The notes under the pieces: model-generated
The model's input: only the letters and a program-made list of their open reading frames with translations
Database searches by the model: none
What the model was told of the DNA's origin: nothing
DNA from: Nemertoderma westbladi
Taxonomy: Eukaryota > Animalia > Xenacoelomorpha
Reading direction: 5' to 3'
Assembly: GCA_032718475.1 (NCBI GenBank)
Contig: JAUCBJ010000075.1
Location: 45,487-109,486 of the forward strand
Length of the DNA: 64,000 nt
Part shown: positions 1-49,461 of the stretch, one piece after another
Numbering within the stretch: the first letter of the stretch is position 1
How the letters are laid out: each line of letters begins with the position of its first letter
Program-made: the position numbers and the translations under genes

Positions 1-31
1 GATCTTGCACTGTCCGGGGGCAAAAGAGGGG

Positions 32-96: not shown

Positions 97-576
97 ATGA
101 CTGAGTTGATAGAAGATGATCTTGGTATCAGGGAGCGATATACTCTACCTTTACAAGCGTTTGTCGATAGCTTGATACGCGGCGACGCTGGTCCAACTAC
201 TACGGAGGACGATGGTCGTTATATTGAACCGCCAATGTCCCAGGAGCAACTTACGCGTGAATTGGATTATAGAAAGTTCACCGCTCGATATACGCATCGT
301 AATGGTACGTATATGGACTTCTTAACTACTGGTCATCCTATCGATTTACACGATACGGACGATGTAGACACCGAAAGGGAAATAGTTTTATTTAAATATC
401 ATACCCAGCGGAGTCGGAAGGATAAACCGAGAATAGAACACGAGAACTCTATTCGAAACAAACTCGAAAGGGAAGACGTTGAAGAGCCGGATAAACGCAG
501 CGACTTTAACGATTATCTGGAATTCCTGAGAGAGACATATCTCAATATTGCCAGCCAACAAAATCTCGAAACTTGA
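97..576 (+). CDS. Retrotransposon accessory ORF-A, 159 aa acidic protein of unknown function
   Basis: 88 of the first 92 aa are identical to ORF 37030-36731, with many synonymous changes (6 in the first 14 codons). Confidence 0.8.
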   Translation: MTELIEDDLGIRERYTLPLQAFVDSLIRGDAGPTTTEDDGRYIEPPMSQEQLTRELDYRKFTARYTHRNGTYMDFLTTGHPIDLHDTDDVDTEREIVLFKYHTQRSRKDKPRIEHENSIRNKLEREDVEEPDKRSDFNDYLEFLRETYLNIASQQNLET

Positions 577-603
577 TATCCTCAAGGTATACATCATGAC
601 CCT

Positions 604-1110
604 ATGATAGAACTCAAACGACTCTATTTCACTATGATGTATCTTACCGCCGATCGACCGCTACCTGTCGTTCCAGATAGCTTCGAACAGATGGAGGAAT
701 ATTGTAAAACTGGAGAACGATCACCCGCGTTTCCCCTGCAGGACGTGCGTCTTTGGTATTATTGCGATGAATGCCCTAGACCCAACCAACAAACGGAAAG
801 ACCTAAACATCCGCAGAGACGTTGCACTAAACACGGTTTTACTCGCTATACTAGCGGGAGTTTCGAGCGAAATTTGTTTGACGTATCACCTACGCTCGTT
901 CGACTCAGACGATCCTTAAATAAACCAATGATCAGAGTTTCGGAATACTCGATCAGACCTCCTCATTCCCTAGTGAGACCTCAGACTCTTGATCCTATTA
1001 GTATGATGGATCCTCCCGAGCTGTACTCACTGTTCAAAGATCTAGTGTTACCTGAACAATTAGTCGGTGGCACCCCGGTTGTGGGCTTCCTAGATATTAG
1101 CCCATCCTAA
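604..1110 (+). CDS. Accessory ORF-B, 168 aa, putative C-x2-C-x16-C-x2-H zinc-binding motif
   Basis: ATG-started ORF 27 nt after the ORF-A stop; its motif VRLWYYCDEC...RRCTKHG parallels VRLSPCQLC...RPCYAHG in the second element. Confidence 0.6.
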   Translation: MIELKRLYFTMMYLTADRPLPVVPDSFEQMEEYCKTGERSPAFPLQDVRLWYYCDECPRPNQQTERPKHPQRRCTKHGFTRYTSGSFERNLFDVSPTLVRLRRSLNKPMIRVSEYSIRPPHSLVRPQTLDPISMMDPPELYSLFKDLVLPEQLVGGTPVVGFLDISPS

Positions 1111-1440
1111 CTAGCCGGATTGGGACGCGGACATTTAATATCGCCGTTTAACCCTTACCATCGTCCCGGCTTAACACGATATAACCTGTCACCAAAGTGG
1201 CGGAGAGCGTTGTACCAAATGAGTTAGACGCTATTCTACAAAGATCAGAAAAGGAACTTACGCTTGTTCAGATAAACGTAAATTGCACTAGCAAGTCCAA
1301 GCGGTAAACAAAGTAACTTTATCTCAGTTCGATCGGGAAATCCAGAATCTCTAAGAAGTTATCGAACTTGGACGACCCTATTCTCTGCGAGAGTTTTTGG
1401 ATGAACGTATCCAGCTACGAGCGGAGGAAAATCAGCTCGA

Positions 1441-1619
1441 GGAGAAGCATATCGAAACGGCGGATACCCCGACCATAATCCTACACCTTCTGATGCAATC
1501 ATATTGCACCCTTCACCCAGGATTTATAGCCCTCCTAGTAAAGTGGCTCCCCCAAAGAGAAAAGGACTCTTGCTAGCCTCAAAAAACTGCATAAACGCCG
1601 TCCTCGTAAGAAAGACTAA
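1441..1619 (+). pseudogene. Disrupted terminal accessory ORF-D with basic NLS-like tail
   Basis: Reads GGYPDHNPTPSDAIILHPSPRIYSPPSKVA, then a 1-nt deletion in a C run (~1549-1553) before PKEKRTLASLKKLHKRRPRKKD*; homologous to 36067-35735. Confidence 0.65.
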
Positions 1620-1697: not shown

Positions 1698-2788
1698 TGT
1701 AAAGGCTTTTGCGTAATTAGCCGGTTATTTTCCCGGTAAAGTACTCTGTAGTTGGTTTAACAGGCATAAAAAGCCGTGTCCTTACTGTACTGGTGTAGCT
1801 ACCATGGCGACGGCTAACAGCTGATGCTGTACACGTGGAGCTTGTTCTTTGTTCTCTGTTCCTTCTTTGTTCGGTCGACCAATCAGAGCGTTTTTTGCCT
1901 CTGTGTTAGAGATTGTATATAGAAACTCGTGGAGTTGAGTCAGTATGTGATTTGTCCACAGCCTAGAACATTGGCTTTGGAACCTCCGTGTTTCAGTCTT
2001 TAGCCCAACATTAGTAGGCTTAATTATAGAACGTATATCTGTTATCTCACTCACATACATATTATCATACCATACCTAACCCAATCGATCATATCAATTT
2101 ATACCTTAACATTTTACTGCTTTTACTGTCGGTTATTCATTATATTTGTTGATGGAATATTATATTTGGAATACTGATGAATAATCAGACACCCCAATCT
2201 TCTTGATATACTAAAGGTTAGAGAGACCGGTTACATATAACAATTGCAACTTACATTAAGTGGTTTGAAGTGAATCTAATGCTATTTTATAGGCCCTACA
2301 CGTATTGTCTGTTGTTCTCCTTATATGTGACTAAAATTAGTGAAGGTCGGCAGATTGGTGTGCAGCATTGTGCAGTATTGTGTATGATCGTGATTGATAA
2401 CGAAGCATCTCCTAAAGAATGCGCCATATACGTGAATCTATAGCCATCCCGTTGTGTCTAGTTTAAGTCATAACTCTGTTTATATACTTAAAGCGCCACG
2501 TCCTAAAGGAACTGTTAATATTTCCCGAAAGTGAATAATATTTGTCAGAGATTATATATATTACGATCAGTCGAATAATACAGTAGGCCTACCCCGCAAT
2601 ACGGTTAGGCTTCCGAATCCAGTCTCCCGGGTAGATCCAGCGGGTGAATGATTGCGCATAGACTGGTTTCGGCTAATGTAGTGTATCAAATACTTGTCAT
2701 AGGCTAAAGACTATCTATCATCTCAAAGACATCCCATGGGATGTCTAATTTGGCAGGTTAAACTGCTAAAGGTCTGAAAGCGCGAACA
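1698..2788 (+). repeat. 3' LTR (1091 bp, TG...CA), preceded by short PPT GGGAGCGG (1690-1697)
   Basis: Begins TGTAAAGGCTT and ends GCGCGAACA; shares conserved blocks with the LTRs of the second element, e.g. GCGCCACGTCCTAAAGGAACTGTTAATATTTCCCGAAAGT and TTGGCAGGTTAAACTGCTAAAGGTCT. Confidence 0.85.
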
Positions 2789-28391: not shown

Positions 28392-28596
28392 CTGATTCAT
28401 CTTTACTCCGACTATCAGCTACGCCTATTAGCCTATCACCCTCTCCTGCTGTTGCTGTCGGTTCTCGTCCAACTGACTCGGAGAGTTTCGATTTGACAGT
28501 CAGCAACTCGCTGGCGAGCTGGTCCCGTTCCTGTCTGAGTGACGTCACCACAGACTCATCGTGGCTACTCGACTTGGGAAGACGAACCCTAGACGC
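28392..28596 (-). CDS. Internal exon of host coiled-coil gene (ASRVRLPKSSSHDESVVTSLRQERDQLASELLTVKSKLSES...SKDES-G)
   Basis: Acceptor TTTTATTATTAG|GCG, donor CAG|GTAGGG, 205 nt open, phase 0 to 1. Confidence 0.82.
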
Positions 28597-29983: not shown

Positions 29984-32231
29984 CTGTGTGCTGTTGTTCC
30001 GTGTTCCAACTAACCTGGGTTACTGTGGCCTGCACCTCTGCCAGTCTGTGTGCTGTTGTTCCGTGTTCCAACTAACCTGGGTTACTGTGGCCTGCACCTG
30101 TCCCAGTCTGTGTGCTGTTGCGCCGTGTTCCAACTAACCTGGGTTACTGTGGCCTGCACCTCTGCCAGTCTGTGGGATGTTGTTCCGTGTTCCAACTAAC
30201 CTGGGTTACTGCGGCCTGCACCTGTACCAGTCTGTGTGCTGTTGTTCCGTGTTCCAACTAACCTGGGTTACTGTGGCCTGCACCTGTCCCAGTCTGTGTG
30301 CTGTTGTTCCGTGTTCCAACTAACCTGGGTTACTGTGGCCTGCACCTGTCCCAGTCTGTGTGCTGTTGTTCCGTGTTCCAACTAACCTGGGTTACTGTGG
30401 CCTGCACCTGTCCCAGTCTGTGTGCTGTTGTTCCGTGTTCCAACTAACCTGGGTTACTGTGGCCTGCACCTGTCCCAGTCTGTGTGCTGTTGTTCCGTGT
30501 TCCAATTAACCTGGGTTACTGTGGCCTGCACCTCTGCAAGTCTTTGTGATGTTGTTCCGTGTTCCAACTAACCTGGGTTACTGTGGCCTGCACCTGTCCC
30601 AGTCTGTGTGCTGTTGTTCCGTGTTCCAACTAACCTGGGTTACTGTGGCCTGCACCTGTCCCAGTCTGTGTGCTGTTGTTCCGTGTTCCAATTAACCTGG
30701 GTTACTGTGGCCTGCACCTCTGCAAGTCTTTGTGATGTTGTTCCGTGTTCCAACTAACCTGGGTTACTGTGGCCTGCACCTGTCCCAGTCTGTGTGCTGT
30801 TGTTCCGTGTTCCAACTAACCTGGGTTACTGTGGCCTGCACCTGTCCCAGTCTGTGTGCTGTTGTTCCGTGTTCCAACTAACCTGGGTTACTGTGGCCTG
30901 CACCTGTCCCAGTCTGTGTGCTGTTGTTCCGTGTTCCAACTAACCTGGGTTACTGTGGCCTGCACCTGTCCCAGTCTGTGTGCTGTTGTTCCGTGTTCCA
31001 ACTAACCTGGGTTACTGTGGCCTGCACCTCTGCCAGTCTTTGTGATGTTGTTCCGTGTTCCAACTAACCTGGGTTACTGTGGCCTGCACCTGTCCCAGTC
31101 TGTGTGCTGTTGTTCCGTGTTCCAACTAACCTGGGTTACTGTGGCCTGCACCTGTCCCAGTCTGTGTGCTGTTGTTCCGTGTTCCAACTAACCTGGGTTA
31201 CTGTGGCCTGCACCTGTCCCAGTCTGTGTGCTGTTGTTCCGTGTTCCAATTAACCTGGGTTACTGTGGCCTGCACCTCTGCAAGTCTGTGTGCTGTTGTG
31301 CCGTGTTCCAACTAAGCTGGGTTACTGCGGCCTGTATCTCAGCCAGTCTGTGGGATGTTGTTCCGTGTTCCAACTAACCTGGGTTACTGCGACCTGCACC
31401 AGTCTGTGTGATGTTGTTCCGTGTTCCAACTAACCTGGGTTACTGCGGCCTGCACCTCTGCAAGTCTGTGTGCTGTTGTGCCGTGTTCCAACTAAGCTGG
31501 GTTACTGCGGCCTGTATCTCAGCCAGTCTGTGGGATGTTGTTCCGTGTTCCAACTAACCTGGGTTACTGCGGCCTGCACCTCTGCCAGTCTGTGTGCTGT
31601 TGTTCCGTGTTCCAACTAACCTGGGTTACTGTGGCCTGCACCTCTGCCAGTCTGTGTGCTGTTGTTCCGTGTTCCAACTAACCTGGGGTACTGCGGCCTG
31701 CACCTCAGCCAGTCTGTGTGATGTTGTTCCGTGTTCCAACTAACCTGGGTTAATACGGCATGCACCTGTCCCAGTCTGTGTGCTGTTGTTCCGTGTTCCA
31801 ATTAACCTGGGTTACTGTGGCCTGCACCTCTGCCACGCTGTGTGATGTTGTTCCGTGTTCCAACTATCCTGGGTTACTGCGGCCTGCACCTCTGCCAGTC
31901 TGTGTGATGTTGTTCCGTGTTCCAACTAACCTGGGTTACTGCGGCTTGCACCTCTGCCAGTCTGTGTGATGTTGTTCCGTGTTCCAACTAACCTGGGTTA
32001 CTGCGGTCTGCACCTCTGCCAGTCTGTGTGCTGTTGTTCCGTGTTCCAACTATCCTGGGTTACTGCGGCCTGCACCTCTGCCAGTCCGTGTGCTGTTGTT
32101 CCGTGTTCCAACTAACCTGGGTTACTGTGGCCTGCATCTCAGCCAGTCTGTGTGATGTTGTTCCGTGTTCCAACTAACCTGGGTTACTGTGGCCTGCATC
32201 TCAGCCAGTCTGTGTGCTGTTGTTCCGTGTT
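29984..32231 (-). repeat. 62-bp minisatellite (~36 units) whose first unit overlaps the 3' end and splice donor of exon 32346-32179
   Basis: Reverse complement of the 12744-17756 unit; continuous with the exon's coding sequence. Confidence 0.97.
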
Positions 32232-32346
32232 CTAATTTCGCGTTTATATTCTTGGCGTCTAACAGTCGGTTCTGCATAGCGAGATATTGATTCTCATCGC
32301 ACGCTTCCTTCAGTCGCTTTTCCAAACGATCCTTTTCCGTGAGAGC
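32179..32346 (-). CDS. Internal exon of host coiled-coil gene (ALTEKDRLEKRLKEACDENQYLAMQNRLLDAKNINAKLEHGTTAHRLAEMQATVTQ)
   Basis: Poly-C tract plus AAACAG|GCT acceptor, donor CAG|GTTAGT, 168 nt open, phase 0/0. Confidence 0.85.
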
Positions 32347-34426
32347 CTGTTTGGGGGGGGGGGGGGTAATAATAAAGGGAGCTCACATTAGGAGGTATGG
32401 CAGGCTCCCAGATCTATAAGTAAGATATAAAGTGGCAATGTATTAAAATATCTTATTGCATTTCGATAACTTAATGTATTCCGTTCTTTTGGGCGTAATA
32501 TTTTAGAGTACAGTAGTAAGAATATAGATACAATACAGGAGAGTGTTACAGTACAGTAGTAAGAATTAATAGATACAGAACAGTAGTAAGAATTAATAGA
32601 TACAGTACAGTAGTAAGAATTAATAGATACAGTACAGTAGTAAGAATTAATAGATACAGTACAGTAGTAAGAATTAATAGATACAGTACAGTAGTAAGAA
32701 TTAATAGATACAGTACAGTAGTAAGAATTAATAGATACAGTACAGTAGTAAGAATTAATAGATACAGTACAGTAGTAAGAATTAATAGATACAGTACAGT
32801 AGTAAGAATTAATAGATACAGTACAGTAGTAAGAATTAATAGATACAGTACAGTAGTAAGAATTAATAGATACAGTACAGTAGTAAGAATTAATAGATAC
32901 AGTACAGTAGTAAGAATTAATAGATACAGTACAGTAGTAAGAATTAATAGATACAGTACAGTAGTAAGAATTAATAGATACAATACAGTAGTAAGAATTA
33001 ATAGATACAGTACAGTAGTAAGAATTAATAGATACAGTACAGTAGTAAGAATTAATAGATACAATACAGTAGTAAGAATTAATAGATACAGAACAGTAGT
33101 AAGAATTAATAGATACAGTACAGTAGTAAGAATTAATAGATACAGTACAGTAGTAAGAATTAATAGATACAGTACAGTAGTAAGAATTAATAGATACAGT
33201 TAAGTAGTAAGAATTAATAGATACAATACAGTAGTAAGAATTAATAGATACAATACAGTAGTAAGAATTAATAGATACAGTACAGTAGTAAGAATTAATA
33301 GATACAGTACAGTAGTAAGAATTAATAGATACAGAACAGTAGTAAGAATTAATAGATACAGTACAGTAGTAAGAATTAATAGATACAGTACAGTAGTAAG
33401 AATTAATAGATACAGTACAGTAGTAAGAATTAATAGATACAGTTAAGTAGTAAGAATTAATAGATACAATACAGTAGTAAGAATTAATAGATACAATACA
33501 GTAGTAAGAATTAATAGATACAGTACAGTAGTAAGAATTAATAGATACAGTACAGTAGTAAGAATTAATAGATACAGTACAGTAGTAAGAATTAATAGAT
33601 ACAATACAGTAGTAAGAATTAATAGATACAGTTAAGTAGTAAGAATTAATAGATACAGTACAGTAGTAAGAATTAATAGATACAATACAGTAGTAAGAAT
33701 TAATAGATACAATACAATAGTAAGAATTAATAGATACAATACAGTAGTAAGAATTAATAGATACAGTACAGTAGTAAGAATTAATAGATACAGTACAGTA
33801 GTAAGAATTAATAGATACAGTACAGTAGTAAGAATTAATAGATACAGTACAGTAGTAAGAATTAATAGATACAGAACAGTAGTAAGAATTAATAGATACA
33901 GTACAGTAGTAAGAATTAATAGATACAGTACAGTAGTAAGAATTAATAGATACAGTACAGTAGTAAGAATTAATAGATACAATACAGTAGTAAGAATTAA
34001 TAGATACAGAACAGTAGTAAGAATTAATAGATACAATACAATAGTAAGAATTAATAGATACAATACAGTAGTAAGAATTAATAGATACAGTACAGTAGTA
34101 AGAATTAATAGATACAGTACAGTAGTAAGAATTAATAGATACAGTACAGTAGTAAGAATTAATAGATACAGTACAGTAGTAAGAATTAATAGATACAATA
34201 CAGTAGTAAGAATTAATAGATACAATACAATAGTAAGAATTAATAGATACAATACAGTAGTAAGAATTAATAGATACAGTACAGTAGTAAGAATTAATAG
34301 ATACAGTACAGTAGTAAGAATTAATAGATACAGTACAGTAGTAAGAATTAATAGATACAGAACAGTAGTAAGAATTAATAGATACAATACAATAGTAAGA
34401 ATTAATAGATACAATACAGTAGTAAG

Positions 34427-35656
34427 TGTTCGCGCTTTTGAAGACCTTTAGCAGTTTAACCTGCCAAAATTTATATGTCTTTTAGTTAATTAACACACCT
34501 TTAGCATACGACAATATTTTATGCTAATAAACAAAACATTAGCCGAAGCCAGCCCATGCGCGATCATTCACCCGATGGATCTACACCCGGGAGGCTGAAT
34601 TCGGATGCTTAGATTTTATTATTGCAGTGTAAGGTTGCAGTGTAAACCTATTGTATTATTCGATAGATCACTAATAATTAATTTCTGACAGATATTATTA
34701 ACTTTCGGGAAATATTAACAGTTCCTTTAGGACGTGGCGCTCTATCTATTTAAACAGAGCTAGGACTTATACTAAACGCAACGATAAGGCTTATGATTAA
34801 AGTATAAGTCGCATTCTTTAGGAAATGCTTTGTTACCAGTCACATCACACTCACAATCATGCACACTATTCTGCCGACCGTCAGTATATTTGATCACACA
34901 TAAAGAGAACAGCAATTGACTCAGGTAGTGTCTACTAAATAACATTAGATTCAATACACACCACATTGATATAAATCGCAATTGTTATATATAGCCCGCC
35001 TCTCTAACCTGTAGTGTATCAAGAAAATTGGGAATTTTGGGTGATTTATCCGTATTCTCCAAAGAGCAATATTTCCATCAACAAATAGATACAATTAATA
35101 ACTGACGGTAAATAGCAGTACAAACAATATGATTAGTGCAGTTAAATTAAGTGAGGTAACACCGCCGGTAACAGTTATACTTTCTATAATCTAAGCAGTT
35201 TTACTAGAGTTCTTAGAGCCGGTGTTTCTGGCTTAGACAGCAATAACAACAAAGTATCAAGTAAAAGCAGTAAGACTGAACACTCTCCTTATGATCGGCC
35301 GAAAAGCTACACGTCGACAGGAAAAATCGCTCTGATTGGCTCAAGCCAAACAAAGAACCATGCGTCCAATGGCTGTTTCCATGTCAGCAACCAGCTGTTA
35401 GATGTCGTAATATGAATCATCACGGCTAAGCTGTGAAAGGTAGTTGGTGCATTGCAGGTTTTTTGCCTTACCATGTCCGCCAAAACACGTATATAGCAGA
35501 ATGACTTTTATGTCCGTTAAAACACCTGTAACGGTACCTTGCGGGCGAGGGGAATATATATACAGTTAGAGAACCTTTTTAGAGTATTCCAGCGCCTGGG
35601 GGGAAACTGGATTGCGAAGCAAAAGGGGCCAGTTATATCCCACAGAAGCTTTTACA
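34427..35656 (-). repeat. 3' LTR
   Basis: Matches 45087-46316; only one mismatch noticed by eye (35364 G vs 46024 A). Confidence 0.95.
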
Positions 35657-35734
35657 CCGCTCCCAGAAAATGGGATTTGAGTCTATAAATATACAAAAAT
35701 CACAGTTTCTAATATACGTAAATACTCTAAACAG

Positions 35735-36067
35735 TTAGTCTTTCTTGCGCGGACGGCGTTTACGCAGTTTTTTAAAGCTAGCAAGAGTCCTTTTCTCTTT
35801 GGGGCGAGCCACTTTACGAGGAGGGCTATAACTCCTGGGTGAAGGGTGCAATATGATTGCATCAGAAGGTATGGGATTGCGATCGGTATATCCGCCGGTC
35901 GAAGTACCGGGTTGATTGACATCAACGTCCGGGGAGAGGGGTCTAACGGCTTTGAGAGCTCGTTTCAAGACAGCCGCTCTTACGGGTCCTTTACGAGTGG
36001 TCTGAACGAGGGCCGTGGGTGGACCATAGGCAGTTAGAAACTTCCTTGGTTTAATGGTTTTTTCCAA
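35735..36067 (-). CDS. Accessory ORF-D, Pro/basic protein with NLS-like tail KKLRKRRPRKKD (no ATG start; may be fused to ORF-C)
   Basis: Its C-terminal ~50 aa are homologous to 1459-1619; in the tail, synonymous changes are more frequent in this frame than in the overlapping one. Confidence 0.55.
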   Translation of the reverse strand: MEKTIKPRKFLTAYGPPTALVQTTRKGPVRAAVLKRALKAVRPLSPDVDVNQPGTSTGGYTDRNPIPSDAIILHPSPRSYSPPRKVARPKEKRTLASFKKLRKRRPRKKD

Positions 36068-36357
36068 CTCGCGTTCGCGGGCTCGGTACTCGTAAGGCCG
36101 TCGATATACTTCCTGTAACTCGATATGCGTGATTTCTGTTCGACAGAAGCGAATAGATAAGGATGGAACGCATAAATTCCTTCGTAAGCGCGTCCAGGAT
36201 AATAGCGATGGCGCGAATCACGATGTAAATCAGCGTTCGCTTCCCAAGCTCTAATGTAACGTAGTGTGATCATTTCATCTACGCTTTCCAAATCGCGATT
36301 AAAAGGGCAATCGAAACTGGCGTGTCCCTTTAGTGGACAGTAGTGACATTGAGTCAT
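36034..36357 (-). CDS. Accessory ORF-C with canonical CCHC zinc knuckle (CHYCPLKGHASFDC)
   Basis: ATG at 36357; exact C-x2-C-x4-H-x4-C spacing. Confidence 0.6.
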   Translation of the reverse strand: MTQCHYCPLKGHASFDCPFNRDLESVDEMITLRYIRAWEANADLHRDSRHRYYPGRAYEGIYAFHPYLFASVEQKSRISSYRKYIDGLTSTEPANASWKKPLNQGSF

Positions 36358-36391
36358 AAATTGAGGGCAAACCGCAAAAATATGCAAATTA

Positions 36392-36574
36392 TTAAATCTG
36401 CAATACGCTCAATAAATTTCCATCGCCGGTTGTTCGTGGAAATAGGAACAGCGGACGTTTGTGTCCATGGGCGTAACATGGTCTCTCGATGCGCATAACC
36501 GACAACGTTGCCGAGAAACATAGTTGGCATGGCGATAATCGTACGCAGTGAGACACTGTGGACCTTGATACCAT
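36392..36574 (-). CDS. Accessory ORF-B', 60 aa, C-x2-C-x13-C-x2-H motif
   Basis: Same position in the cassette as ORF 604-1110 and a similar VRL..CxxC...RxCxxHG motif. Confidence 0.45.
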   Translation of the reverse strand: MVSRSTVSHCVRLSPCQLCFSATLSVMRIERPCYAHGHKRPLFLFPRTTGDGNLLSVLQI

Positions 36575-36576
36575 TC

Positions 36577-37030
36577 TAGGATGTAATCGTTGTCGCTGTT
36601 CCGAGCGCGATAGGCTGAATCTCCTCAGATTCTAGGCATATTGGTTCGTGTTCGGCTTCCCAGTCTGTTACGAATAGAATTTTCGTGATCTATTCTCGGT
36701 TTATCGTTACGACTCCGCTGGGTATGATATTTAAATAGAACCATTTCCCTTTAGGGTGTCTACATCGTCCGTATCATGTAAATCGATAGGATGGCCGGTA
36801 GTTAAGAAGTCCATATACGTACCATTACGATGCGTATAGCGAGCGGTTAATTTTCGATAGTCCAATTCACGCGTAAGTTGCTCTTGGGACATCGGCGGTT
36901 CGATATAACGACCATCGTCCTCCGTAATAGTCGGATCGGCTTCACCGCGTATCAAGCTATCCACAAACGCTTGTAAAGGTAGAGTATATCGCTCTCTAAT
37001 ACCAAGGTCATCTTCTATTAATTCCGTCAT
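36577..37030 (-). pseudogene. Accessory ORF-A copy with an apparent +1 frameshift at ~36754 (possibly a second in a G run at ~36660)
   Basis: After the shift the frame resumes as REMVLFKYHTQRSRNDKPRIDHENSIRNRL, matching copy 1; the indels lie in homopolymers and may be sequencing errors. Confidence 0.7.
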
Positions 37031-38653
37031 ATCTGCTATCTGAGTTTATTAATATTAGTATGAGTCAATATTTAGGCAAGCGGGCGTCGCTGCCTACTAG
37101 TCTTTGACCCCGGACAGTGGGTTTCTCAGCGCCGATGTACCGTTGTCGCGGTGTTTGCGCCAACATGTAGCAACAGCACGACAACGATAATCGACACAAG
37201 TCCCACCACTGTCCGTCCCAAAGGCTTGAATCCACTTGAGGTTATCTCGGTAGAGTTAGGCTACTTTACAATTGCGATTAGCTACTGTAAACACACTTTA
37301 GTAGTATCATTCACCTATAAACGCACAAATTCCATACAATCATTACTTACTGCACACATGCAAGCCATTTTGTCCGTTAGTCATTGTCTTCCAGAATGTC
37401 ACGTTATTACTATGTATCCTTGGATACTAATAGTGCGCTATGTATTCTCTTATGCTACGCAATGGGGCAAGCTTTTTATTGTTCAGTTAACTTGCTTCTA
37501 ATTCTAGCGTGGGTGTTGCCATGGTGACATTATGGAAAACTAGCGGTAGAATTAGGATAATTCTCATGCATACAGATCTGGGATGTTATTTAATAGTAAT
37601 TCTTTAATTGTCAATATCCTCTTTATGCATGATTTTATAAATTTTATCGACTATTGACTATATGTTGGAGATTCTCACACTCTAGTACACTCAATATGAA
37701 TCTCCGCTCCCATGATCTATTAATTACTGGAATTTTGGGAATGTTGTAAATTGCACAAAATGACAATTTATGAAATTCATTTGAATATGAATTTAAATTT
37801 ATTCCCGTGAATTTTATTATTTGATGTTAAGTTGACACAAATTTTATTCCAGAGCATATCTGGGGACTTAGGATCCTTAATTCTATAAAATAGTCCTTCT
37901 AAGAATATCGGTAAATGCTGCGATATCTTAATTGACTAGAAATTTTAAAGGATCGGGATTTTACAGATTTTAATAAATATTAAATTAATATTTAGGATGG
38001 GCACCGATTTATTCCAGAACTTGTCTGGGGACGTTAACCACTGATTCTAGAATTTGTCTTTCAAGTATATCGGTGGGTGCCACGATATCTTAATCGACTA
38101 GAATTACAGATGGTCAAAAAGTTTAACAGATTTATTTGCGATTTACGCTACTGTTAGAGGGACATCACGCTACTATATGTATTATTTAATATAAGGTAGA
38201 AGAGCAATATCGCACGAAGCAATGTCAGTGTGAAGAGGCAAGTCGTTTCCAAGGTCTACCCAGAGCTTGGTTTAGCCGAGACACGAGGATCTGAACTTTG
38301 CATTCCTAATACTCTGCCTACCAATAATACTTAAATATAGTAGTGGCTTTATTGTACTTTAATAAGTACTGACATGTCATCTTACTATAGTCTCGCATTT
38401 ATAATATAATACGGACAGTAAGGAAAGAGAAAAATAATTATTTCTTGCCGTCGCACTAAATATATTATAAGTAATCAAGTACGTAATAAACACTAATATA
38501 TTGCACTAATTTACTAAATAATCGCTAAAATAACATTCTACTAAATAAAATTAAAGAAAACGATTATAATAAAATTACGTAATAATACATACATAAATAT
38601 AAAATAAAAAACAAATATAAAATGATATAGTCATACACCCACTCCATATGTTA

Positions 38654-41600
38654 TTATGTTATGGAGTCCCTAGATATTTGTCGGATTAGGGAAGTGGTCG
38701 TAGGAAGAGTATCTTGCCTTCCATAGTTTCCGGACAGTTTTTGGTCTCTTTCCAGTAAACATAAACGACCAGCTGGGTGATTGGGTTGTCGTGTTACTTT
38801 CTCCGCTCCCTTGGCCTGTCTAATCTCAGCCGGGTTAAGGTGGGGAGGCCATTCATCTTCTTCTTTACTCAGGGAGTCGGGTCCACCTAACCAGCCTGGA
38901 GTATCTATCAGTTCTTGAGGAGTTGCTCCTCTGGAAGCGATGTCGGCTGGATTAATCGTCCCAAGGCAATGTCTCCATTGATCTACATTGGAGTTAATAT
39001 CGTCATTATCTGAGGAGTATGGTGTTCCCTCAGTTGGATCGTCCACATCACTGCTCTCCACTTCCCCCTTTACTTGGTATACCTGTTGTTGAGGTAATCT
39101 CTCTTTGAGAGTTCTACGGGAAGGGCCAGTGAAGTACCAACCTACTCTAGTTCTTACCGCATAAGTTTGTAATGGCTGCGGTTGAGCAGGCCGTTTCTCC
39201 AATGTCTCGAGCGCCTCATGCGCGTTTTGGCCGATGAGGATTTGCACTCCAGGATAATCGGTTTGGAATCGAGGTATCTCAAGATGTTGGATGCACTCGT
39301 CCTCGTCCCAGTTATAAGGTTCTGCTTGAGTAGTAGCAAAGTTCTTTATGGCCACCATTTTTACTGACCTTATACCTTGTGTTCCTAACTTATCCTGGGG
39401 GGTGGACAACACACCTACATAGTAATCTGCCGTTAGGGTAGATTTCCAAACCTGCATAATTCCTGACATATTCAGTTTAGTCCGGAACTTGGGTTGTCCA
39501 GCAAAGATATCTTCGGCTAGTTCTTGATTGATGAATGTTCCTGTGCTGCCGGAGTCAAGGAGGGCGTTCACTATGTAGCTTTTGTTAAGACCGTGAACTC
39601 TTACTTGAACTACAGGAAATTCTCTGATTCCTACGTTGGAAGCTGGAGCTTTCCAAGATGGTTGTTTGGCGAAAGTAGTTGGGGGAAACTCATCGTTGAT
39701 GTCCTTTTCGTAAGTAAGTGCTCGATACACTGCGGTATTTATTAGATAACAGGATTCGTTGGCATCGGAGAATTCGTCCGTATAGAATCCTTCCCACTCA
39801 GAACTTTGGTCAGTGTCGTTCACATCACTGAATTGGACATGTGATTTGGGCTCACTTACCTGACTCGGGCTGTTTCGTTCGAATTCCGTGTGTAACAAGC
39901 TATGATGTTTCGCGCCGCACTTAGCACACCTTGCGTCAGAGTAACAGGTTCGCCGCTGGTGTCCGCGTCTGAGACAGTTATAACATAACCGCTTATCCCA
40001 CAGGACTCCACGTCTATCTGCCATGGATTTCTTTAGGAATTCTGCACACGCACTCAAACGGTGGGGCCCGTCGCACAGCGCACATTTTGGTTTGATGTTA
40101 CTCACCTTAACTTGGTTAACGTTCTGCACTCTCGTTCTTTCTTCGGGCTTTCTTCCGTGAATTCTCTTAGGAGACGTAGGAGGAGTTGTTGTTACCTGTT
40201 CTCTCCTGTCACTGGTTCGAGACTTGTATTTACTTACGTCTTTATAGGTCTTGTTGTCATAGTAAGATTTTGCTGTGTCTTTCCCGCTGTCCTCTTCTTG
40301 AGAAGCTTGGCTTTCGCCGTCGTCAGTATAACACACTGGTATTATCCTTCTCCTAGAATCGGGTTTCTCACTTACCTTATTTTCCGATGTTTTCTCTCTG
40401 GCCTGCCTTATGAGTTGTAATTTTACTTCACTATCTAAGAAAGACATGAGATCAGCCATGGTAGGACTTCGTCGTTGTTGTTCATTCATGTACAACACTT
40501 TCTTGTCCCAGCGTGTACATACTCCACCCTTTGGTAAAGTAGAGACTACGGCTCCAATAACCATGGAACTCTGATATTCATGCGACTTACCTAACCAGTC
40601 CAGTTGTCTACAGATCTCTTGAATTTCATCGGAAAACTCTATAATCTCGCTACTAAGGAAGTGTCGGGGGGCTACTAATTTTGTATACAAATACTTAGCT
40701 ATGTTATCTTTGTTACCATACCTGATGTTTAATGTATCCCAAACTTGTCTTAATCCATCTGGATGTCCAATAAACTTTAACGCCATTAACTTGGGAGGTC
40801 CTTCCAAGCACTTGATGAGGAACCTAAGTTTCTCTCCATTAGATAGCACAGAGTTCTGTATGCTGTCTTTATAATATTCGTTGAAAGGTAACCATTTCAT
40901 TTCGTCTCCATTGAATTTGACGATCTCTCCCACTTTGACTGCTTGGCGGGCTTCTGTTCTAGCCATCTGACGCGTAAAGCTTTCTTGGGCCATCGTGTTA
41001 TTTAATATCGAATTATCGGTATACAAATTTCTCGGATCATTATCAGGTCTATAGGGAATATCATTAATAACAGGTCTATAATCACCCTTAATAGGGTTTG
41101 CTATAGGAGTTTCAACTTCACTAGCAGTATAGATGCGTGTAGGCTCCACACCTTGCGCATGTAGTACTTCAGACCTAACAGGTTGACACAATGTTACAGG
41201 AGGTATTGGTATGCCTTTTTGTATATTGACTAATTTGTCGCGTTCTAGCGCGATACTTTGCTGCACTTCTTGCAACTCTGCTCTACCTTCCCTCACTGTT
41301 CCCTTAAGTTGGTGGACAGTCTCCTGCATCTGTCCCAGCAGGAGATTCATCCCCCGCCGTCCCTCTTCCACCCACTCAACCGCCGAAGCGGGAGTCGCCA
41401 ACATAGTAGCGGGCTGACGCGGGACGACGGGAGACAAATTATTGATTTCTCTCTCTGCTATCTGGACAGGGGTATTTGCATGGACTGTTCCACCGGGTAC
41501 AGGCAGTGTAGTGCTATGTAAAGGGAATTTAGAGTTAAGCTCTGGAAGTGTAGGGGTCTCTAGCACAGAAGTGACTTTGGGAACGACAGGCCTAACTATT

Positions 41601-42838
41601 TCCGGCTCATCTACTATAGTAGGGAGTCTATTTACGGTAATAATTTGGTCTGTGGGTTCTGTACTACTTAAATCTGTGCTAGCTATTTGTCTTCTAACAG
41701 CGGGGGGCAAATCGGGCAATTTATGACGGTGAGATGTCTTTCTACGCCTACTGAGACGAGATCTATTTCCTCTGCCTTCAGGATCGGTGGTCTCGCCTTC
41801 CTCCGATGATGTGTATCCTTGGCGTTTGGGAGTAGATCGACTCATCATCTGCATTTGATTAGCAGTAAACTGTTTATTTATACTGTCTTGTGTCTCTTGC
41901 AGATTTTCCAACTCCAGTTGGGTAGTCTGCTCAAATGCTCTCCTTTCTGCTTCTGCCACTGCCTTTGCCGCCTTTTTGTCTGCTTCTGCCATTGCTTCTG
42001 CCGCCTTTCTGTCTGCTTCTGCCATTGCTTCTGCCGCCTTTCTGTCTGCTTCTGCTTCTGCCGCCGCTCTTGCTGCTGCCATTGCCCTTCTGTCCTCTAT
42101 CGCTTTTTTCTTTACTTGCTCTTCTTGGACTCTAACGAGGCGGAGTTTTTCATCACATTCAGCTTGGTTTGCAGCTAACATTTCGGCATCAATTGCGTCC
42201 AACACAAGCTTGGTTCCTTCACTATTAGGGGAAAGTCCAGACAGCCGTCTCCTCAACTCTTCGTCTCCTAGGAATCGCTGATAGTCGGACAAATAAATGT
42301 CGATAGCGTCTCTAGTTCGCGGCTTCTCTGCTGATGTTAATTCGCTTTCCACTTCGCTTTCCACCTCGCTTTCCACTTCGCTTTCCACCTCACTTTCCAC
42401 TTCGCTTTCCACCTCACTTTCCACTTGAGAAGAAGTGGCGTCGGTTGATTCCCCACAGGCTGGCCGCCCATCATAAACCGTATCCGCCATCTTCGCTCCG
42501 CGTTCTGGCGTCCGCTCAACAGTATCCGAACTACTGGAGCTATCGGACCGCTGAGGACCCGGTTCTTGGCCAGGAGGTTGCTGCTGTTTTATAGCTTCTT
42601 CTTGATCCCACTTGACTTGGGCCCGAGTGCCTATGGCAGACCAACGGCGCTTCACTAACTTCGCAAATTGCGAAATCTTTTCTACCAACCTAGGTTCTGA
42701 CACAACCACTGCAGGGGTTGCCCTTCTTACAGTATGAGGGGTTTCAGACCTCGGTCTGGGATTCTCTACACTTTGATCTGAGAAACAGGCTGTTGTTTCT
42801 AGGAGACTATCTGACAGAGTTTGCCTTGTGTCAGCCAT
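38654..42838 (-). CDS. gag-pro: BEL/Pao Gag-protease polyprotein with only remnants of pol (1394 aa)
   Basis: DUF1759-like KFNGDEMKWLPF...LSNGEKLRFL...RYGN; knuckles CALCDGPHRLSAC, CYNCLRRGHQRRTC, CAKCGAKHHSLLH; protease ALLDSGS...ILIG...RTRVGW; QWRH...NPADIASRG...GP...WP remnant; no RT YxDD region and no integrase core. Confidence 0.92.
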   Translation of the reverse strand: MADTRQTLSDSLLETTACFSDQSVENPRPRSETPHTVRRATPAVVVSEPRLVEKISQFAKLVKRRWSAIGTRAQVKWDQEEAIKQQQPPGQEPGPQRSDSSSSSDTVERTPERGAKMADTVYDGRPACGESTDATSSQVESEVESEVESEVESEVESEVESEVESELTSAEKPRTRDAIDIYLSDYQRFLGDEELRRRLSGLSPNSEGTKLVLDAIDAEMLAANQAECDEKLRLVRVQEEQVKKKAIEDRRAMAAARAAAEAEADRKAAEAMAEADRKAAEAMAEADKKAAKAVAEAERRAFEQTTQLELENLQETQDSINKQFTANQMQMMSRSTPKRQGYTSSEEGETTDPEGRGNRSRLSRRRKTSHRHKLPDLPPAVRRQIASTDLSSTEPTDQIITVNRLPTIVDEPEIVRPVVPKVTSVLETPTLPELNSKFPLHSTTLPVPGGTVHANTPVQIAEREINNLSPVVPRQPATMLATPASAVEWVEEGRRGMNLLLGQMQETVHQLKGTVREGRAELQEVQQSIALERDKLVNIQKGIPIPPVTLCQPVRSEVLHAQGVEPTRIYTASEVETPIANPIKGDYRPVINDIPYRPDNDPRNLYTDNSILNNTMAQESFTRQMARTEARQAVKVGEIVKFNGDEMKWLPFNEYYKDSIQNSVLSNGEKLRFLIKCLEGPPKLMALKFIGHPDGLRQVWDTLNIRYGNKDNIAKYLYTKLVAPRHFLSSEIIEFSDEIQEICRQLDWLGKSHEYQSSMVIGAVVSTLPKGGVCTRWDKKVLYMNEQQRRSPTMADLMSFLDSEVKLQLIRQAREKTSENKVSEKPDSRRRIIPVCYTDDGESQASQEEDSGKDTAKSYYDNKTYKDVSKYKSRTSDRREQVTTTPPTSPKRIHGRKPEERTRVQNVNQVKVSNIKPKCALCDGPHRLSACAEFLKKSMADRRGVLWDKRLCYNCLRRGHQRRTCYSDARCAKCGAKHHSLLHTEFERNSPSQVSEPKSHVQFSDVNDTDQSSEWEGFYTDEFSDANESCYLINTAVYRALTYEKDINDEFPPTTFAKQPSWKAPASNVGIREFPVVQVRVHGLNKSYIVNALLDSGSTGTFINQELAEDIFAGQPKFRTKLNMSGIMQVWKSTLTADYYVGVLSTPQDKLGTQGIRSVKMVAIKNFATTQAEPYNWDEDECIQHLEIPRFQTDYPGVQILIGQNAHEALETLEKRPAQPQPLQTYAVRTRVGWYFTGPSRRTLKERLPQQQVYQVKGEVESSDVDDPTEGTPYSSDNDDINSNVDQWRHCLGTINPADIASRGATPQELIDTPGWLGGPDSLSKEEDEWPPHLNPAEIRQAKGAEKVTRQPNHPAGRLCLLERDQKLSGNYGRQDTLPTTTSLIRQISRDSIT

Positions 42839-44199
42839 GTTTGATTGTACAGTTGAATGCCTACTGCTATATTACAGTTAAAGCAAGTCTAGCAATTCAG
42901 TATCACTGTTAGCCTAGTAATTAATTACCGATACTGCTACTCAGTGTAGCGTGATATATATATAATATATTAGAATACCGGTATGCTTATAATATATATA
43001 TAAGTATTATTACAGACTAGATTTGTCACAGAGTACCGGTATATAATTTTAGCACAAATATATATAAATATATAATAGGCCTATCGTGAATACCGGTATA
43101 CAGCTTACACTTATAGTATATATAAGTATAATTATGAACTAAAATTAATTACAGAATACCGGTATGATTTCAGCTCAAATTTATAGAAATAAATATAATA
43201 AGCCTATGGTAAATACCGGTATGTCAATTATTTTAGAATAATTGAATTTCTGAATATTTTAGGGTTACTTGGTTACTTTAACTTACTTTGTTACCGTTAT
43301 TTAAGCAGTAGTCCAACTGATATTGAGACCTAGTTGTTGTATGGCAGGCCTACTATTTATAAATCGTTTGAGTTGATTTATAATATTTATATACCCGTTT
43401 AAAAGGGTTTTGTCAATATTTGAAATAAATGTTATTATTTCTGGGGGGTCACTACACAGAAGCTGTGCGCTCTCAGTGAAGTGCTATTTATTTGACACTA
43501 AAACTGATAATTCTAATTTACCTAAGTTACTTAATACTACAAATTACTTACGATACGGGTGAGATTAATTCTCTAATTAAACACAACAAAATATTACGTA
43601 CAAAATTTTTAGGGTAATTTTACAGGAAGTCTACAAACCAGCCTAACAAAGGGTTAGAATTCTGGTTATTACAATGAACAGGGTACTACGGTATTTGAAA
43701 ATAATAAGTAGTAGTAAATACACTGCGTTGTCCAGATAGGAAAATATCACCGCCTGACGACCTATAACCGTATCGCTATAGGTACTACGTTATGTATCAC
43801 GGATTGTTCCTACCCAGAAGCTAATAGAGCTAACGAATGTGCCTATCAACCACTTTACAACACAAATATACTGCCTACACTAATTACTTCGGAAAGCACT
43901 GTACACTAAACCCTAAATTAGGTACAAGTACCGGTATAACAAATAATCAGTAGTTAAATATACTTGAACAGTTAAAAGAACCACGGCATCTGCTGGAGTG
44001 ACCGAAGCACAAAGTCGTCAGTCTTTACCTACGCCGAGCAGCCCTGATGTAGTACCGGGGTTAATTTAACTATAACGGTATCGTAGTAACAAACACAATT
44101 ACTGTAGGAATAAACTTGGGGACATGAATGTTGCGAATAATCGCATAAACTCTGAATAATAAATATTACGCTACCCGTACAGAATACTCAAACAAATAC

Positions 44200-44730
44200 A
44201 AACCAAAACGCTGGCAGACTACCACCAAGCCTAAATAAACTACCGTACGTGTAGATTCTGAAATAGTTAGTTAGTATGCGTTCTAACACGGTAGTACGAC
44301 TTATTCTTCAAGAGGGGATTGACCTTACCGCTATGGCTGCCCCAACTTACTAACGGAGCTTTATCAGACAAACTCTACACACGCAGCAATCTCTTCAGAC
44401 CTAATAATAGCTAGACAACAATCCAGCCTACAAAATATCTGAGTAATAACTATTACGGTACCTGAACAGACCACACAAACAAACACAGGCTAAAACACTG
44501 GCAGACTACGATCAAGCCTAAATAAACTACAGTATATGCAGATTCTGAAACTGTTAGTTAGTATGCGTTCTAACACGGTAGTACGACTTATTCTTTAAGA
44601 GGGGATTGACCTTCAGCATATGGCTGCCCCAACTTACTAACGGCACTTTATCAGACCAACTCTACACACACCGCAATCTCTCCAAACTCAACAACAGTCA
44701 GACAGCAGCTCAGCCTACAATTATCTGAAC
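44200..44730. repeat. ~286-bp diverged direct duplication in the long 5' leader of the LTR element
   Basis: CTGGCAGACTAC...GTTAGTTAGTATGCGTTCTAACACGGTAGTACGACTTATTCTT...ATGGCTGCCCAACTTACTAACGG occurs twice. Confidence 0.85.
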
Positions 44731-45086
44731 AATCTGAGCAGGGTCACACGCCTTCTGCTCAATATTAGCCTACTAGTAAATAAAACCGACAGAAATAAGT
44801 AAACTATACAAAAGAATGAGGGGTGATCAATCCCTATTCCCCTGGCAGCCTACAATATACAATAGATCACAATCGAAATAATACTAAATGTACTTGTACA
44901 GCAGTACCGGTACCGGTGATGACAGTTAGGCCTACTGACCTACAGAAGCACCGGTTCAGTTTTACCAGTCACTACGGTATTTTGCAACCTTATTGCCTAC
45001 TGCAATAAGATTATAACTGTTACTGTTCGACAGAACAGTATTAAACTGTATTTAATGCTTACACTGCAATACAAAGTAACTGTTAC

Positions 45087-46316
45087 TGTTCGCGCTTTTG
45101 AAGACCTTTAGCAGTTTAACCTGCCAAAATTTATATGTCTTTTAGTTAATTAACACACCTTTAGCATACGACAATATTTTATGCTAATAAACAAAACATT
45201 AGCCGAAGCCAGCCCATGCGCGATCATTCACCCGATGGATCTACACCCGGGAGGCTGAATTCGGATGCTTAGATTTTATTATTGCAGTGTAAGGTTGCAG
45301 TGTAAACCTATTGTATTATTCGATAGATCACTAATAATTAATTTCTGACAGATATTATTAACTTTCGGGAAATATTAACAGTTCCTTTAGGACGTGGCGC
45401 TCTATCTATTTAAACAGAGCTAGGACTTATACTAAACGCAACGATAAGGCTTATGATTAAAGTATAAGTCGCATTCTTTAGGAAATGCTTTGTTACCAGT
45501 CACATCACACTCACAATCATGCACACTATTCTGCCGACCGTCAGTATATTTGATCACACATAAAGAGAACAGCAATTGACTCAGGTAGTGTCTACTAAAT
45601 AACATTAGATTCAATACACACCACATTGATATAAATCGCAATTGTTATATATAGCCCGCCTCTCTAACCTGTAGTGTATCAAGAAAATTGGGAATTTTGG
45701 GTGATTTATCCGTATTCTCCAAAGAGCAATATTTCCATCAACAAATAGATACAATTAATAACTGACGGTAAATAGCAGTACAAACAATATGATTAGTGCA
45801 GTTAAATTAAGTGAGGTAACACCGCCGGTAACAGTTATACTTTCTATAATCTAAGCAGTTTTACTAGAGTTCTTAGAGCCGGTGTTTCTGGCTTAGACAG
45901 CAATAACAACAAAGTATCAAGTAAAAGCAGTAAGACTGAACACTCTCCTTATGATCGGCCGAAAAGCTACACGTCGACAGGAAAAATCGCTCTGATTGGC
46001 TCAAGCCAAACAAAGAACCATGCATCCAATGGCTGTTTCCATGTCAGCAACCAGCTGTTAGATGTCGTAATATGAATCATCACGGCTAAGCTGTGAAAGG
46101 TAGTTGGTGCATTGCAGGTTTTTTGCCTTACCATGTCCGCCAAAACACGTATATAGCAGAATGACTTTTATGTCCGTTAAAACACCTGTAACGGTACCTT
46201 GCGGGCGAGGGGAATATATATACAGTTAGAGAACCTTTTTAGAGTATTCCAGCGCCTGGGGGGAAACTGGATTGCGAAGCAAAAGGGGCCAGTTATATCC
46301 CACAGAAGCTTTTACA
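45087..46316 (-). repeat. 5' LTR
   Basis: Upstream of gag in element orientation; same termini as the 3' LTR. Confidence 0.95.
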
Positions 46317-49300: not shown

Positions 49301-49461
49301 AGATACAGTACAGTAGTAAGAATTAATAGATACAGTACAGTAGTAAGAATTAATAGATACAATACAGCAGTAAGAATTTATAGATACAGTACAGTAGTAA
49401 GAATTAATAGATACAATACAGTAGTAAGAATTAATAGATACAATACAGTAGTAAGAATTAA

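What the first reader, a model, noticed from the sequence alone, without database searches (positions are those of the whole stretch)
35657..37120. BEL/Pao LTR family carrying a modular cassette of small non-env accessory genes in the env position
Seen: between the polyprotein and the PPT, both elements carry closely packed sense-strand ORFs. The first (ORF-A, 88/92 aa identical with many synonymous changes) and the tail of the last (basic NLS-like) are shared. The middle is different: 168-aa ORF-B in copy 1 versus ORF-B' plus the CCHC-knuckle ORF-C in copy 2. Nucleotide similarity breaks after ENSIRN(K/R)L and resumes at GGY. Known: extra 3' ORFs of BEL/Pao elements (e.g. roo, Tas, some Cer elements) are typically env-like glycoproteins, but these ORFs show no signal peptide or TM helix. 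Inference: a virus-like accessory or cargo module (anti-silencing, RNA-binding or nuclear functions) with a swappable or fast-evolving centre.
Basis: partly seen in the sequence, partly recalled or inferred. Interest (0 to 1): 0.85.

Follow-up and report, generated by a model that had tools for sequence, protein, structure and literature searches.

The report
Retrotransposon extra gene with swapped middle
A jumping gene in what is likely an animal genome carries a conserved protein-coding stretch with no relatives found, at the spot where some of its kin have a viral envelope gene; it is likely one long gene broken up in these two copies rather than several small genes, its predicted zinc-binding middle has likely been exchanged between subfamilies, and its product would act in the nucleus on the element's own RNA or DNA.

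Summary
The coding signal is real; the "small genes" reading mostly is not. ORF-A is 88/92 aa identical between the two copies (dN/dS 0.044). Homology breaks and resumes where stated, and no piece has a membrane helix or a database relative.

Copy 2's internal breaks are largely decay. The stop between ORF-B' and ORF-C is absent from 98-100% of contig depth in four runs. A frameshift inside ORF-A is absent from 63-100%. A diverged subfamily has 160 more bases that put the CCHC frame in register with the basic tail.

Best reading: one orphan third ORF of about 480-510 codons, with an acidic conserved start, a Cys/His middle and a basic end. The two middles are unrelated, so the exchange happened inside the reading frame. 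The ORF-A/middle junction is unresolved, so two genes remain possible. Function (nuclear RNA/LTR regulator) is inferred only.

Copy 2 is a young, RT-less BEL/Pao derivative. Non-env third ORFs are known in rotifer and plant elements; my searches found none of this kind for BEL/Pao. The scan had not noted it on other DNA.

The parts
45087..46316 (-). 5' LTR of copy 2, 1230 bp, TG...CA
   Evidence: 1229 of 1230 identical to the 3' LTR; 5-bp target duplication on both flanks inside a 27-bp satellite
38654..42838 (-). 1394-aa gag-protease ORF fused in frame to a short piece from the end of the RNase H region; RT and integrase absent
   Evidence: DUF1759 E 1.9e-12, weak aspartyl protease and CCHC hits; 36 Pao-type polyproteins among 3700 candidates; tblastn jumps from homolog residue about 514 to about 1180 and finds nothing elsewhere in the window
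37120..38653 (-). AT-rich spacer between the polyprotein stop and the third ORF; no pol remnant found
   Evidence: no tblastn hit from 36 homologs; internal duplication 37843-37941/38008-38103; covered by contigs in 4 of 4 runs
37031..37119 (-). conserved non-coding stretch before the ORF-A start (possible internal promoter or splice acceptor; untested)
   Evidence: 83.5% identical to window 8-96; sequence shown
36656..37030 (-). conserved acidic N-terminal block of the third ORF (ORF-A, about 124 codons), broken by a one-base frameshift at about 36753 in this copy
   Evidence: dN/dS 0.044, Fisher p 2.5e-11 for codons 1-92; 0.17, p 0.008 for the next 31; frameshift absent from 92%, 63%, 97% and 100% of depth in X1, X3, X4, X6
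36600..36655 (-). unresolved junction between ORF-A and the Cys/His middle: in-frame TGA at 36627-36625; length variants at 36604 and 36650 among copies
   Evidence: one X6 contig over 36605-36720 differs at one base only (36636), so it shares the stop
36122..36624 (-).
   Evidence: 19 of 31 listed variant sites at third positions, 21 synonymous, p 0.0013; stop absent from 98-100% of depth in 4 of 4 runs; motifs
36115..36121 (-). place where a diverged subfamily carries 160 more bases (7-base overlap of the two aligned pieces); this copy is the shorter form
   Evidence: X3 record 1 and X5 record 17; frame arithmetic
35735..36114 (-). C-terminal frame: Arg/Lys- and Pro-rich; the GGY...RKKD tail (from 35897) is shared with copy 1
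   Evidence: net charge +21 over 128 aa and 5 of 7 listed variants at third positions, p 0.045; 13 K/R in the last 25 aa
35657..35666 (-). polypurine tract, identical in both copies
34427..35656 (-). 3' LTR of copy 2
97..576 (+). copy 1 ORF-A, 159 aa to an in-frame TGA; net charge -14
577..1457 (+). copy 1 middle: ORF-B (604-1110, same register as ORF-A) with CX2CX11HX4C at 763, then a decayed stretch with four in-register stops
   Evidence: no DNA similarity to the copy 2 middle (z -0.6)
1458..1619 (+). copy 1 shared tail; GGY block in ORF-A's register, one-base shift at about 1549 before the basic end
1698..2788 (+). copy 1 3' LTR, 1091 bp; 74% like the copy 2 LTR in its 3' 700 bp, barely alignable in its 5' part

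Best explanation
The stretch between pol and the 3' LTR of this BEL/Pao-derived family codes for protein under purifying selection, and it is likely one orphan, non-envelope third gene of about 480-510 codons whose product would enter the nucleus through its basic tail and bind the element's own RNA or LTR through predicted zinc knuckles.

Shown: selection on the N-terminal block and on the CCHC frame; no membrane helix; two internal breaks that other copies lack; unrelated middles between conserved ends.

Inferred steps:
(a) Autonomous relatives hold the frame open from ORF-A to the basic end.
(b) It is made from a spliced or internally started RNA, as the conserved 89-bp leader suggests.
(c) Template switching between two co-packaged subfamilies exchanged the middle while the ends stayed shared.
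(d) The acidic N-terminal block is the constant effector part and the middle sets target specificity. The 5' part of the LTR has diverged along with it, as expected for a Tas/Tat/Rev-like regulator that recognises its own element.
(e) Copy 2 belongs to an amplified RT-less sublineage in which the gene is decaying because it is supplied in trans.

I put the single-gene structure at about 0.6 and, given that, the self-regulator function at about 0.5.
For: Selection: ORF-A dN/dS 0.044; CCHC frame 21 synonymous of 31 listed sites against 8 and 6 in the other sense frames.

Breaks not shared: stop at 36411-36409 absent from 98-100% of depth in 4 of 4 runs; frameshift at 36753 absent from 63-100% in 4 of 4 runs.

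Register: 160 extra bases in two runs put the CCHC frame in register with the tail frame. ORF-A, ORF-B and the GGY block share one register in copy 1; the ORF-A extension and the CCHC frame share one in copy 2. That is 4 of 4 junctions in register, about 1 in 81 if independent (a post hoc count). ORF-B' has no start codon before 36468, yet 4 of 6 listed variants upstream of it, over 36477-36604, are at third positions (positions).

Exchange: the middles score 24 against 25.6 +/- 2.5 for shuffles, while simulated 33-45% divergence scores 68 or more. Contigs leave the window sequence at 36656-36667, where copy 1 does.

Not env.
Against: No unbroken copy was seen: no genome is held and no listed contig piece spans the cassette. 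Both copies have a TGA right after the ORF-A block, and in copy 2 it is shared by at least one other contig. The inside of the 160 bases was not shown. The short form and a further one-base length variant at 36300 are common (2408 of 4403 depth in X3, 58 of 105 in X5), so broken forms are abundant. The protein middles show no significant likeness (best p 0.015 among 135 pairs). Selection on the tail is weak. Variant counts use only the rows shown (40 of 115) and the sites are not independent. Nothing tests function; both folds failed (pLDDT 39.7 and 33.1).
Confidence: 0.45

Rival explanations
1. Two genes: a conserved acidic ORF-A protein (135-160 aa) that ends at a real TGA, followed by one exchangeable zinc-knuckle/basic protein of about 330-350 aa made by splicing, re-initiation or read-through.
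For: Both copies have a TGA soon after the conserved block; copy 1 has an ATG nine codons after it; the copy 2 TGA is shared by another contig.
Against: The two TGAs lie at different, non-homologous places inside the exchanged part. Copy 2 has no Met until the middle of the first Cys motif. Both downstream frames are in ORF-A's register. Length variants cluster at this junction.
Confidence: 0.25
2. Same gene structure as the best reading, but the product is an anti-silencing factor or a second nucleocapsid-like RNA chaperone aimed at host defence or packaging, not a regulator of its own LTR or RNA. The variable middle would track host factors.
For: Retroviral-type CCHC knuckle; sharply exchanged centre; precedent of a transposon-encoded anti-silencing protein, VANC (PMC6446971 passages).
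Against: No similarity to any known protein. An acidic block plus a nuclear-signal-like tail fits a transcriptional role at least as well (inference).
Confidence: 0.17
3. One reading: three or four independent small genes forming a modular cassette in which whole genes are swapped.
For: The window shows several short sense-strand ORFs and a replaced middle.
Against: The B'/C stop and the ORF-A frameshift are absent from most other copies; the tail frame has no start codon of its own; the exchange points are inside frames.
Confidence: 0.07
4. The middle is a passenger: a fragment of a nested element or a captured host or LINE ORF1-type zinc-knuckle exon with no role for the element.
For: CCHC knuckles are common in retroelement ORF1 and Gag proteins (recalled); the middles are unrelated to each other.
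Against: Third-position bias within the family; both middles are of similar length (987 and 758+160 bases), in register, and carry a Cys/His motif; no hit to known elements.
Confidence: 0.05
5. A highly diverged or truncated env gene.
For: Position after pol and before the polypurine tract, where BEL/Pao env-like genes lie (PMC8742986).
Against: Highest 19-residue hydropathy 1.25 in 12 of 12 pieces; acidic N-terminus; ORF-A has no Cys; no Pfam glycoprotein hit.
Confidence: 0.02

Closest known systems
BEL/Pao (Belpaoviridae) elements with a third, env-like gene: roo (F-type), mosquito elements with Chuviridae/gB-like glycoprotein (PMC8742986 whole text; PMC13524379 passages; PMC3118150 passages)
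   Same: Pao-type gag, LTR size at the top of the 0.2-1.2 kb range, extra ORF on the sense strand between pol and the polypurine tract.
   Different: No membrane helix or glycoprotein match; zinc-knuckle and basic motifs instead. This copy lacks RT, integrase and a tRNA-type PBS.
Non-envelope ORF3s of bdelloid rotifer LTR retrotransposons: GDSL esterase, DEDDy exonuclease, coiled-coil and TM types (PMC5408684 abstract and passages)
   Same: A family-specific third ORF after pol that is not env; different ORF3s among related families; typically separate spliced messages.
   Different: Those ORF3s are recognisable enzymes or membrane proteins acquired as whole genes. This one is an orphan, sits in a BEL/Pao lineage, and appears to vary by exchange inside one gene.
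Additional ORFs of plant LTR retrotransposons (PMC7264820 abstract only; SIRE eORF-3'F passage in PMC6317226)
   Same: Conserved extra ORF between pol and the 3' LTR in most copies, function unknown, heterogeneous sequence.
   Different: Plant Ty1/Ty3 elements, often antisense or env-like; no sequence link found.
Foamy virus Tas/Bel-2 region (PMC7828637 figure-legend passages); Tat/Rev-type regulators (recalled)
   Same: Works-like comparison only: a regulatory ORF just before the 3' LTR, made from an internal promoter and acting on the element's own transcription.
   Different: No sequence similarity; no promoter, transcript or activity shown here; different order of domains (recalled).
sORF1/sORF2 of Drosophila MDG1-group elements (bioRxiv 10.1101/2025.03.14.642691 passages)
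   Same: Small accessory ORFs under purifying selection in env-less LTR elements.
   Different: They lie upstream of gag in Metaviridae, and sORF2/FAST-like proteins have a membrane helix. Neither holds here.
VANC of VANDAL transposons (PMC6446971 passages)
   Same: Element-encoded accessory protein that acts back on its own family.
   Different: A plant DNA transposon protein; no similarity; anti-silencing untested here.

Membership tests
Belpaoviridae (BEL/Pao) | LTRs of 0.2-1.2 kb flanking the genes | tested here: met
   1230 bp (slightly above the stated range) and 1091 bp, TG...CA, 5-bp target duplication (range)
Belpaoviridae (BEL/Pao) | Gag with capsid and nucleocapsid domains of Pao type | tested here: met
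   DUF1759 E 1.9e-12; CCHC motifs at 40084 and 39985; 36 hits whose precomputed domains include PF05380 and/or PF03564
Belpaoviridae (BEL/Pao) | Pol with protease, RT, RNase H, integrase in that order | tested here: not met
   Protease weak (E 0.018); only about 45 aa from the RNase H end; RT and integrase absent in copy 2. Filed as a non-autonomous derivative of a BEL/Pao lineage, not as a complete member.
Belpaoviridae (BEL/Pao) | 18-nt PBS complementary to tRNA-Arg or tRNA-Gly | tested here: not met
   No TGG in the 40 nt after the 5' LTR; the first 10 nt are complementary to the LTR itself
Belpaoviridae (BEL/Pao) | Polypurine tract of about 10 nt before the 3' LTR | tested here: met
   Same short purine-rich tract in both copies
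Belpaoviridae (BEL/Pao) | Placement in the family by RT phylogeny | not testable with these tools
   No RT in either copy within the window; no genome held
Env-like third gene | Signal peptide and transmembrane anchor | tested here: not met
   Highest 19-residue Kyte-Doolittle mean 1.25 in 12 of 12 pieces; no dedicated signal-peptide predictor was run; the 160 extra bases were not seen
Env-like third gene | Similarity to F-type or gB-type fusion glycoproteins | tested here: not met
   No Pfam, PDB-sequence or protein-database hit; no fold comparison was possible
Rotifer-type enzymatic ORF3 (GDSL, DEDDy) | SGNH hydrolase or DEDDy exonuclease domain | tested here: not met
   No such Pfam family at E up to 1-10
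sORF2/FAST-like fusogens | Small protein with one membrane helix followed by a polybasic stretch | tested here: not met
   Polybasic tail present, no helix
Tas/Tat/Rev-like regulators (works-like) | Own subgenomic transcript from an internal promoter or splice | not testable with these tools
   No holder on record as RNA; contigs only
Tas/Tat/Rev-like regulators (works-like) | Nuclear protein that binds and regulates its own LTR or RNA | not testable with these tools
   Only sequence hints: acidic block, CCHC motifs, basic tail

The most novel reading that the evidence does not exclude
A very abundant BEL/Pao lineage has become a 'complex' retroelement. In place of env it carries a nuclear regulator gene whose zinc-knuckle specificity module is swapped by recombination between subfamilies together with the 5' part of the LTR, giving each subfamily a private regulator-target pair. 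The same lineage may prime reverse transcription from its own RNA rather than from a tRNA.
Probability: 0.15. Interest if true: 0.8.

Novelty: new variant of a known kind. Interest (0 to 1): 0.5.

Why it matters
The third genes described for BEL/Pao elements in the papers I read are env-like, and their function is called unknown even there (PMC8742986). An orphan third gene under strong purifying selection, with constant ends and an exchangeable zinc-knuckle centre, would show that this family also takes up regulatory or counter-defence genes. Two natural alleles of the centre on one scaffold make specificity directly testable. The case also shows that 'small accessory ORFs' read from single non-autonomous copies can be decay fragments.

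Tried and rejected
Whole genome: none held.

Protein relatives of ORF-A: none among longer proteins (274 candidates) or near-length proteins (5 candidates). One hit among 1.84 billion representatives, P0001, is a 5185-aa repeat protein with 0 matched stretches and was rejected. Atlas: no usable hit for ORF-A, only sub-0.9 bacterial hypotheticals for ORF-B; the copy 2 middle was not searched there. PDB sequences: nothing for ORF-A or ORF-B, one E 5.8 hit for the tail frame.

Loci: none in viral contigs. Two metagenome loci at 29% identity; L001 holds prokaryote-looking genes and was rejected as chance; L002 has the same match statistics and was not opened.

Folding: single-sequence models had pLDDT 39.7 and 33.1, so no fold search was run.

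Protein homology between the two middles: BLASTP E 8 or worse; best shuffle p 0.015 among 135 pairs. A few motif likenesses seen by eye are not counted.

Expression: no RNA holder listed; X6 is only guessed to be RNA. Contig depth was not used as copy number.

Earlier scan notes: nothing by sequence or words; the 8 shown for this genome concern other elements.

PMC3286476 passages gave nothing on non-env third ORFs.
Full report
SETTING. The window is satellite-rich; no genome is held. Copy 2 lies on the minus strand between LTRs at 46316-45087 and 35656-34427 that differ at 1 of 1230 bases, with a 5-bp target duplication inside a 27-bp satellite, so it inserted recently. Its 1394-aa ORF has a Pao-type gag (DUF1759 E 1.9e-12; 36 hits among 3700 candidates). 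Against those homologs it jumps from the protease to about 45 residues from the end of the RNase H region, and no homolog matches anywhere else in the window (rows printed for 7 of 36, the 'outside' test run on all 36). RT and integrase are gone: the copy is non-autonomous. Copy 1 occupies 1-2788 on the plus strand; only its 3' end is in the window. The host is likely an animal, since the family is described as metazoan (PMC8742986, whole text).

OBSERVATION. The two copies match at 89% over 8-470 and 90% over 1458-1711, with nothing between. ORF-A is 88/92 identical, with 20 synonymous and 4 non-synonymous differences (dN/dS 0.044, Fisher p 2.5e-11); the other two sense frames give 3.4 and 1.6. 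The reverse frame that shares third positions also scores low (0.053) but holds stops. Homology continues for 31 codons beyond a one-base frameshift in copy 2 (26 identical, 0.17, p 0.008). The shared tail gives 0.37 and 0.40, neither significant; the second block ran past the stop. No piece has a membrane-length hydrophobic stretch (12 of 12, maximum 1.25). No relative was found in Pfam, the protein collections, the Atlas, PDB sequences, or viral and metagenome contigs. The one exception is a sub-threshold zinc-knuckle hit (E 0.0018).

ARE THE ORFS SEPARATE GENES? Six public runs from 4 studies hold the stretch; five of them were laid as contigs, and the best may be the window's own sample. 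The family is abundant (35,572 records laid in X1).
(i) The frameshift at 36753-36754 is absent from 92%, 63%, 97% and 100% of depth in X1, X3, X4, X6.
(iii) Two contigs of a subfamily about 14% diverged (X3 record 1, X5 record 17) carry 160 more bases at 36115-36121. By arithmetic this places the CCHC frame in register with the basic tail frame. The inside of those bases was not shown. The short form also has high depth (X3 record 2, with only 26-33 letters on its short side).
(iv) Of the variant rows shown (40 of 115; the two stop-site rows left out), 31 fall in 36122-36604: 19 at third positions of the CCHC frame, 21 synonymous (p 0.0013), against 8 and 6 synonymous in the other frames. Tail frame 5 of 7, ORF-A 6 of 7. 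These sites share ancestry, so the p-values are optimistic.
(v) In copy 1, ORF-A, ORF-B and the GGY block share one register, with six stops along it; in copy 2 the ORF-A extension and the CCHC frame share one.
Start-to-tail spans are 1523 bases in copy 1 and 1296 (+160) in copy 2, or about 480-510 codons. The weak point is the junction at 36655-36600. A TGA stands there in copy 2 and in at least one other contig, length variants occur at 36604 and 36650, and copy 1 also stops shortly after the conserved block. One gene is my reading (about 0.6); two genes remain open. Three or four small genes are unlikely.

SWAPPED OR FAST-EVOLVING? Synonymous divergence in ORF-A is 0.43 and the 3' part of the LTR is 74% identical, so neutral DNA between these subfamilies stays alignable. 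The middles are not: score 24 against 25.6 +/- 2.5 in 100 shuffles, while simulated divergence of 33-45% gave at least 68 in 90 of 90 trials. Protein comparisons were not significant. Yet both middles are of similar length and carry a Cys/His motif (CX2CX11HX4C at 763; CX2CX4HX9C at 36504 and CX2CX4HX4C at 36348). Contigs leave the window sequence at 36656-36667, where copy 1 does. An exchange with breakpoints inside the frame, or equivalently homogenised ends on old divergent middles, is the simplest account. The 5' part of the LTR is also barely alignable (best 92 bases at 70%).

MECHANISM. Shown: an acidic conserved start (net -14), a Cys/His centre, a basic end, no membrane segment, and an 89-bp conserved leader (83.5%). 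Inferred: a separate spliced or internally started RNA, as is typical of third ORFs (PMC5408684 passage); nuclear import by the basic tail; nucleic-acid binding by the knuckles; and a role as regulator of the element's own LTR or RNA, with the centre setting specificity. This works like foamy-virus Tas only by position and analogy (PMC7828637 legends). The chief functional rival is anti-silencing or an RNA-chaperone role (VANC precedent, PMC6446971 passages). Both folds failed, and no RNA data bear on expression.

COMPARISON AND NOVELTY. The BEL/Pao third genes named in the papers read are env-like (PMC8742986 whole text; PMC3118150 and PMC13524379 passages). Non-env third ORFs are established in rotifer elements (PMC5408684 abstract and passages) and plant elements (PMC7264820 abstract). 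MDG1 sORFs lie upstream of gag (bioRxiv 10.1101/2025.03.14.642691 passages). Six searches turned up no zinc-knuckle, non-env third ORF in BEL/Pao. The library lacks most subscription papers, I could not search Repbase or Dfam, and I did not open the element sequences in the supplements of PMC3118150, which could hold such ORFs. Copy 2 fails two listed family features (complete pol, tRNA PBS), so I file it as a non-autonomous derivative of a BEL/Pao lineage. The scan's earlier notes hold nothing on this gene.

VERDICT. Observation partly confirmed; interpretation partly supported. A real, selected, orphan non-env third gene region with an exchanged centre, most likely one gene in decay here. 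New variant of a known kind; interest 0.5.

Noticed in passing
window 45086-44980 and LTR 45837-45828, about 45293-45280: No tRNA-type PBS. The first 10 nt after the 5' LTR are the exact reverse complement of LTR positions 480-489 (36 of 5000 shuffles). A 14-nt stretch from 45071 pairs with LTR position 1024 (1 of 2000 shuffles; 0 of 92 control windows), and the leader repeats these motifs about 60 nt further on. Copy 1's LTR keeps 11 of 12 bases of the first site at 2033. This suggests Tf1/Sushi-like self-priming (precedent: PMC6317226 passages) in a BEL/Pao lineage; one search listed no BEL/Pao case by title or abstract. It may be more surprising than the finding itself.
   Followed up: partly
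window 42838-38654: The deletion of RT is in frame and leaves gag-protease open for 1394 codons in an element with near-identical LTRs: a gag-protease-only non-autonomous form. Contigs of X4 and X6 leave the window sequence at 38796, so other copies continue differently there.
   Followed up: partly
window 41946-42062 and 42341-42426: Long low-complexity N-terminal extension of Gag with 33-bp and 12-bp coding repeats.
   Followed up: no
window 42870-45086: 2.2-kb 5' leader with a 287-bp and a 123-bp tandem duplication.
   Followed up: no
window 37120-38653: AT-rich spacer with an internal duplication about 165 bp apart and many length variants among contigs.
   Followed up: no
window 36300: A one-base length variant in about half of the depth in X3 and X5 but not listed for X4: a second abundant broken lineage of the third ORF.
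   Followed up: no
window 12744-17757, 18813-20301, 22587-28392, 29984-32232, 32547-34426, 46316-54926, 55123-56037, 56531-64000: Mosaic of satellites (62, 31/30, 27, 314 and 24 bp units). The 62-bp array recurs in inverted orientation. The long ORFs at 18745-20208, 23033-24287 and 26346-27656 are products of these repeats.
   Followed up: no
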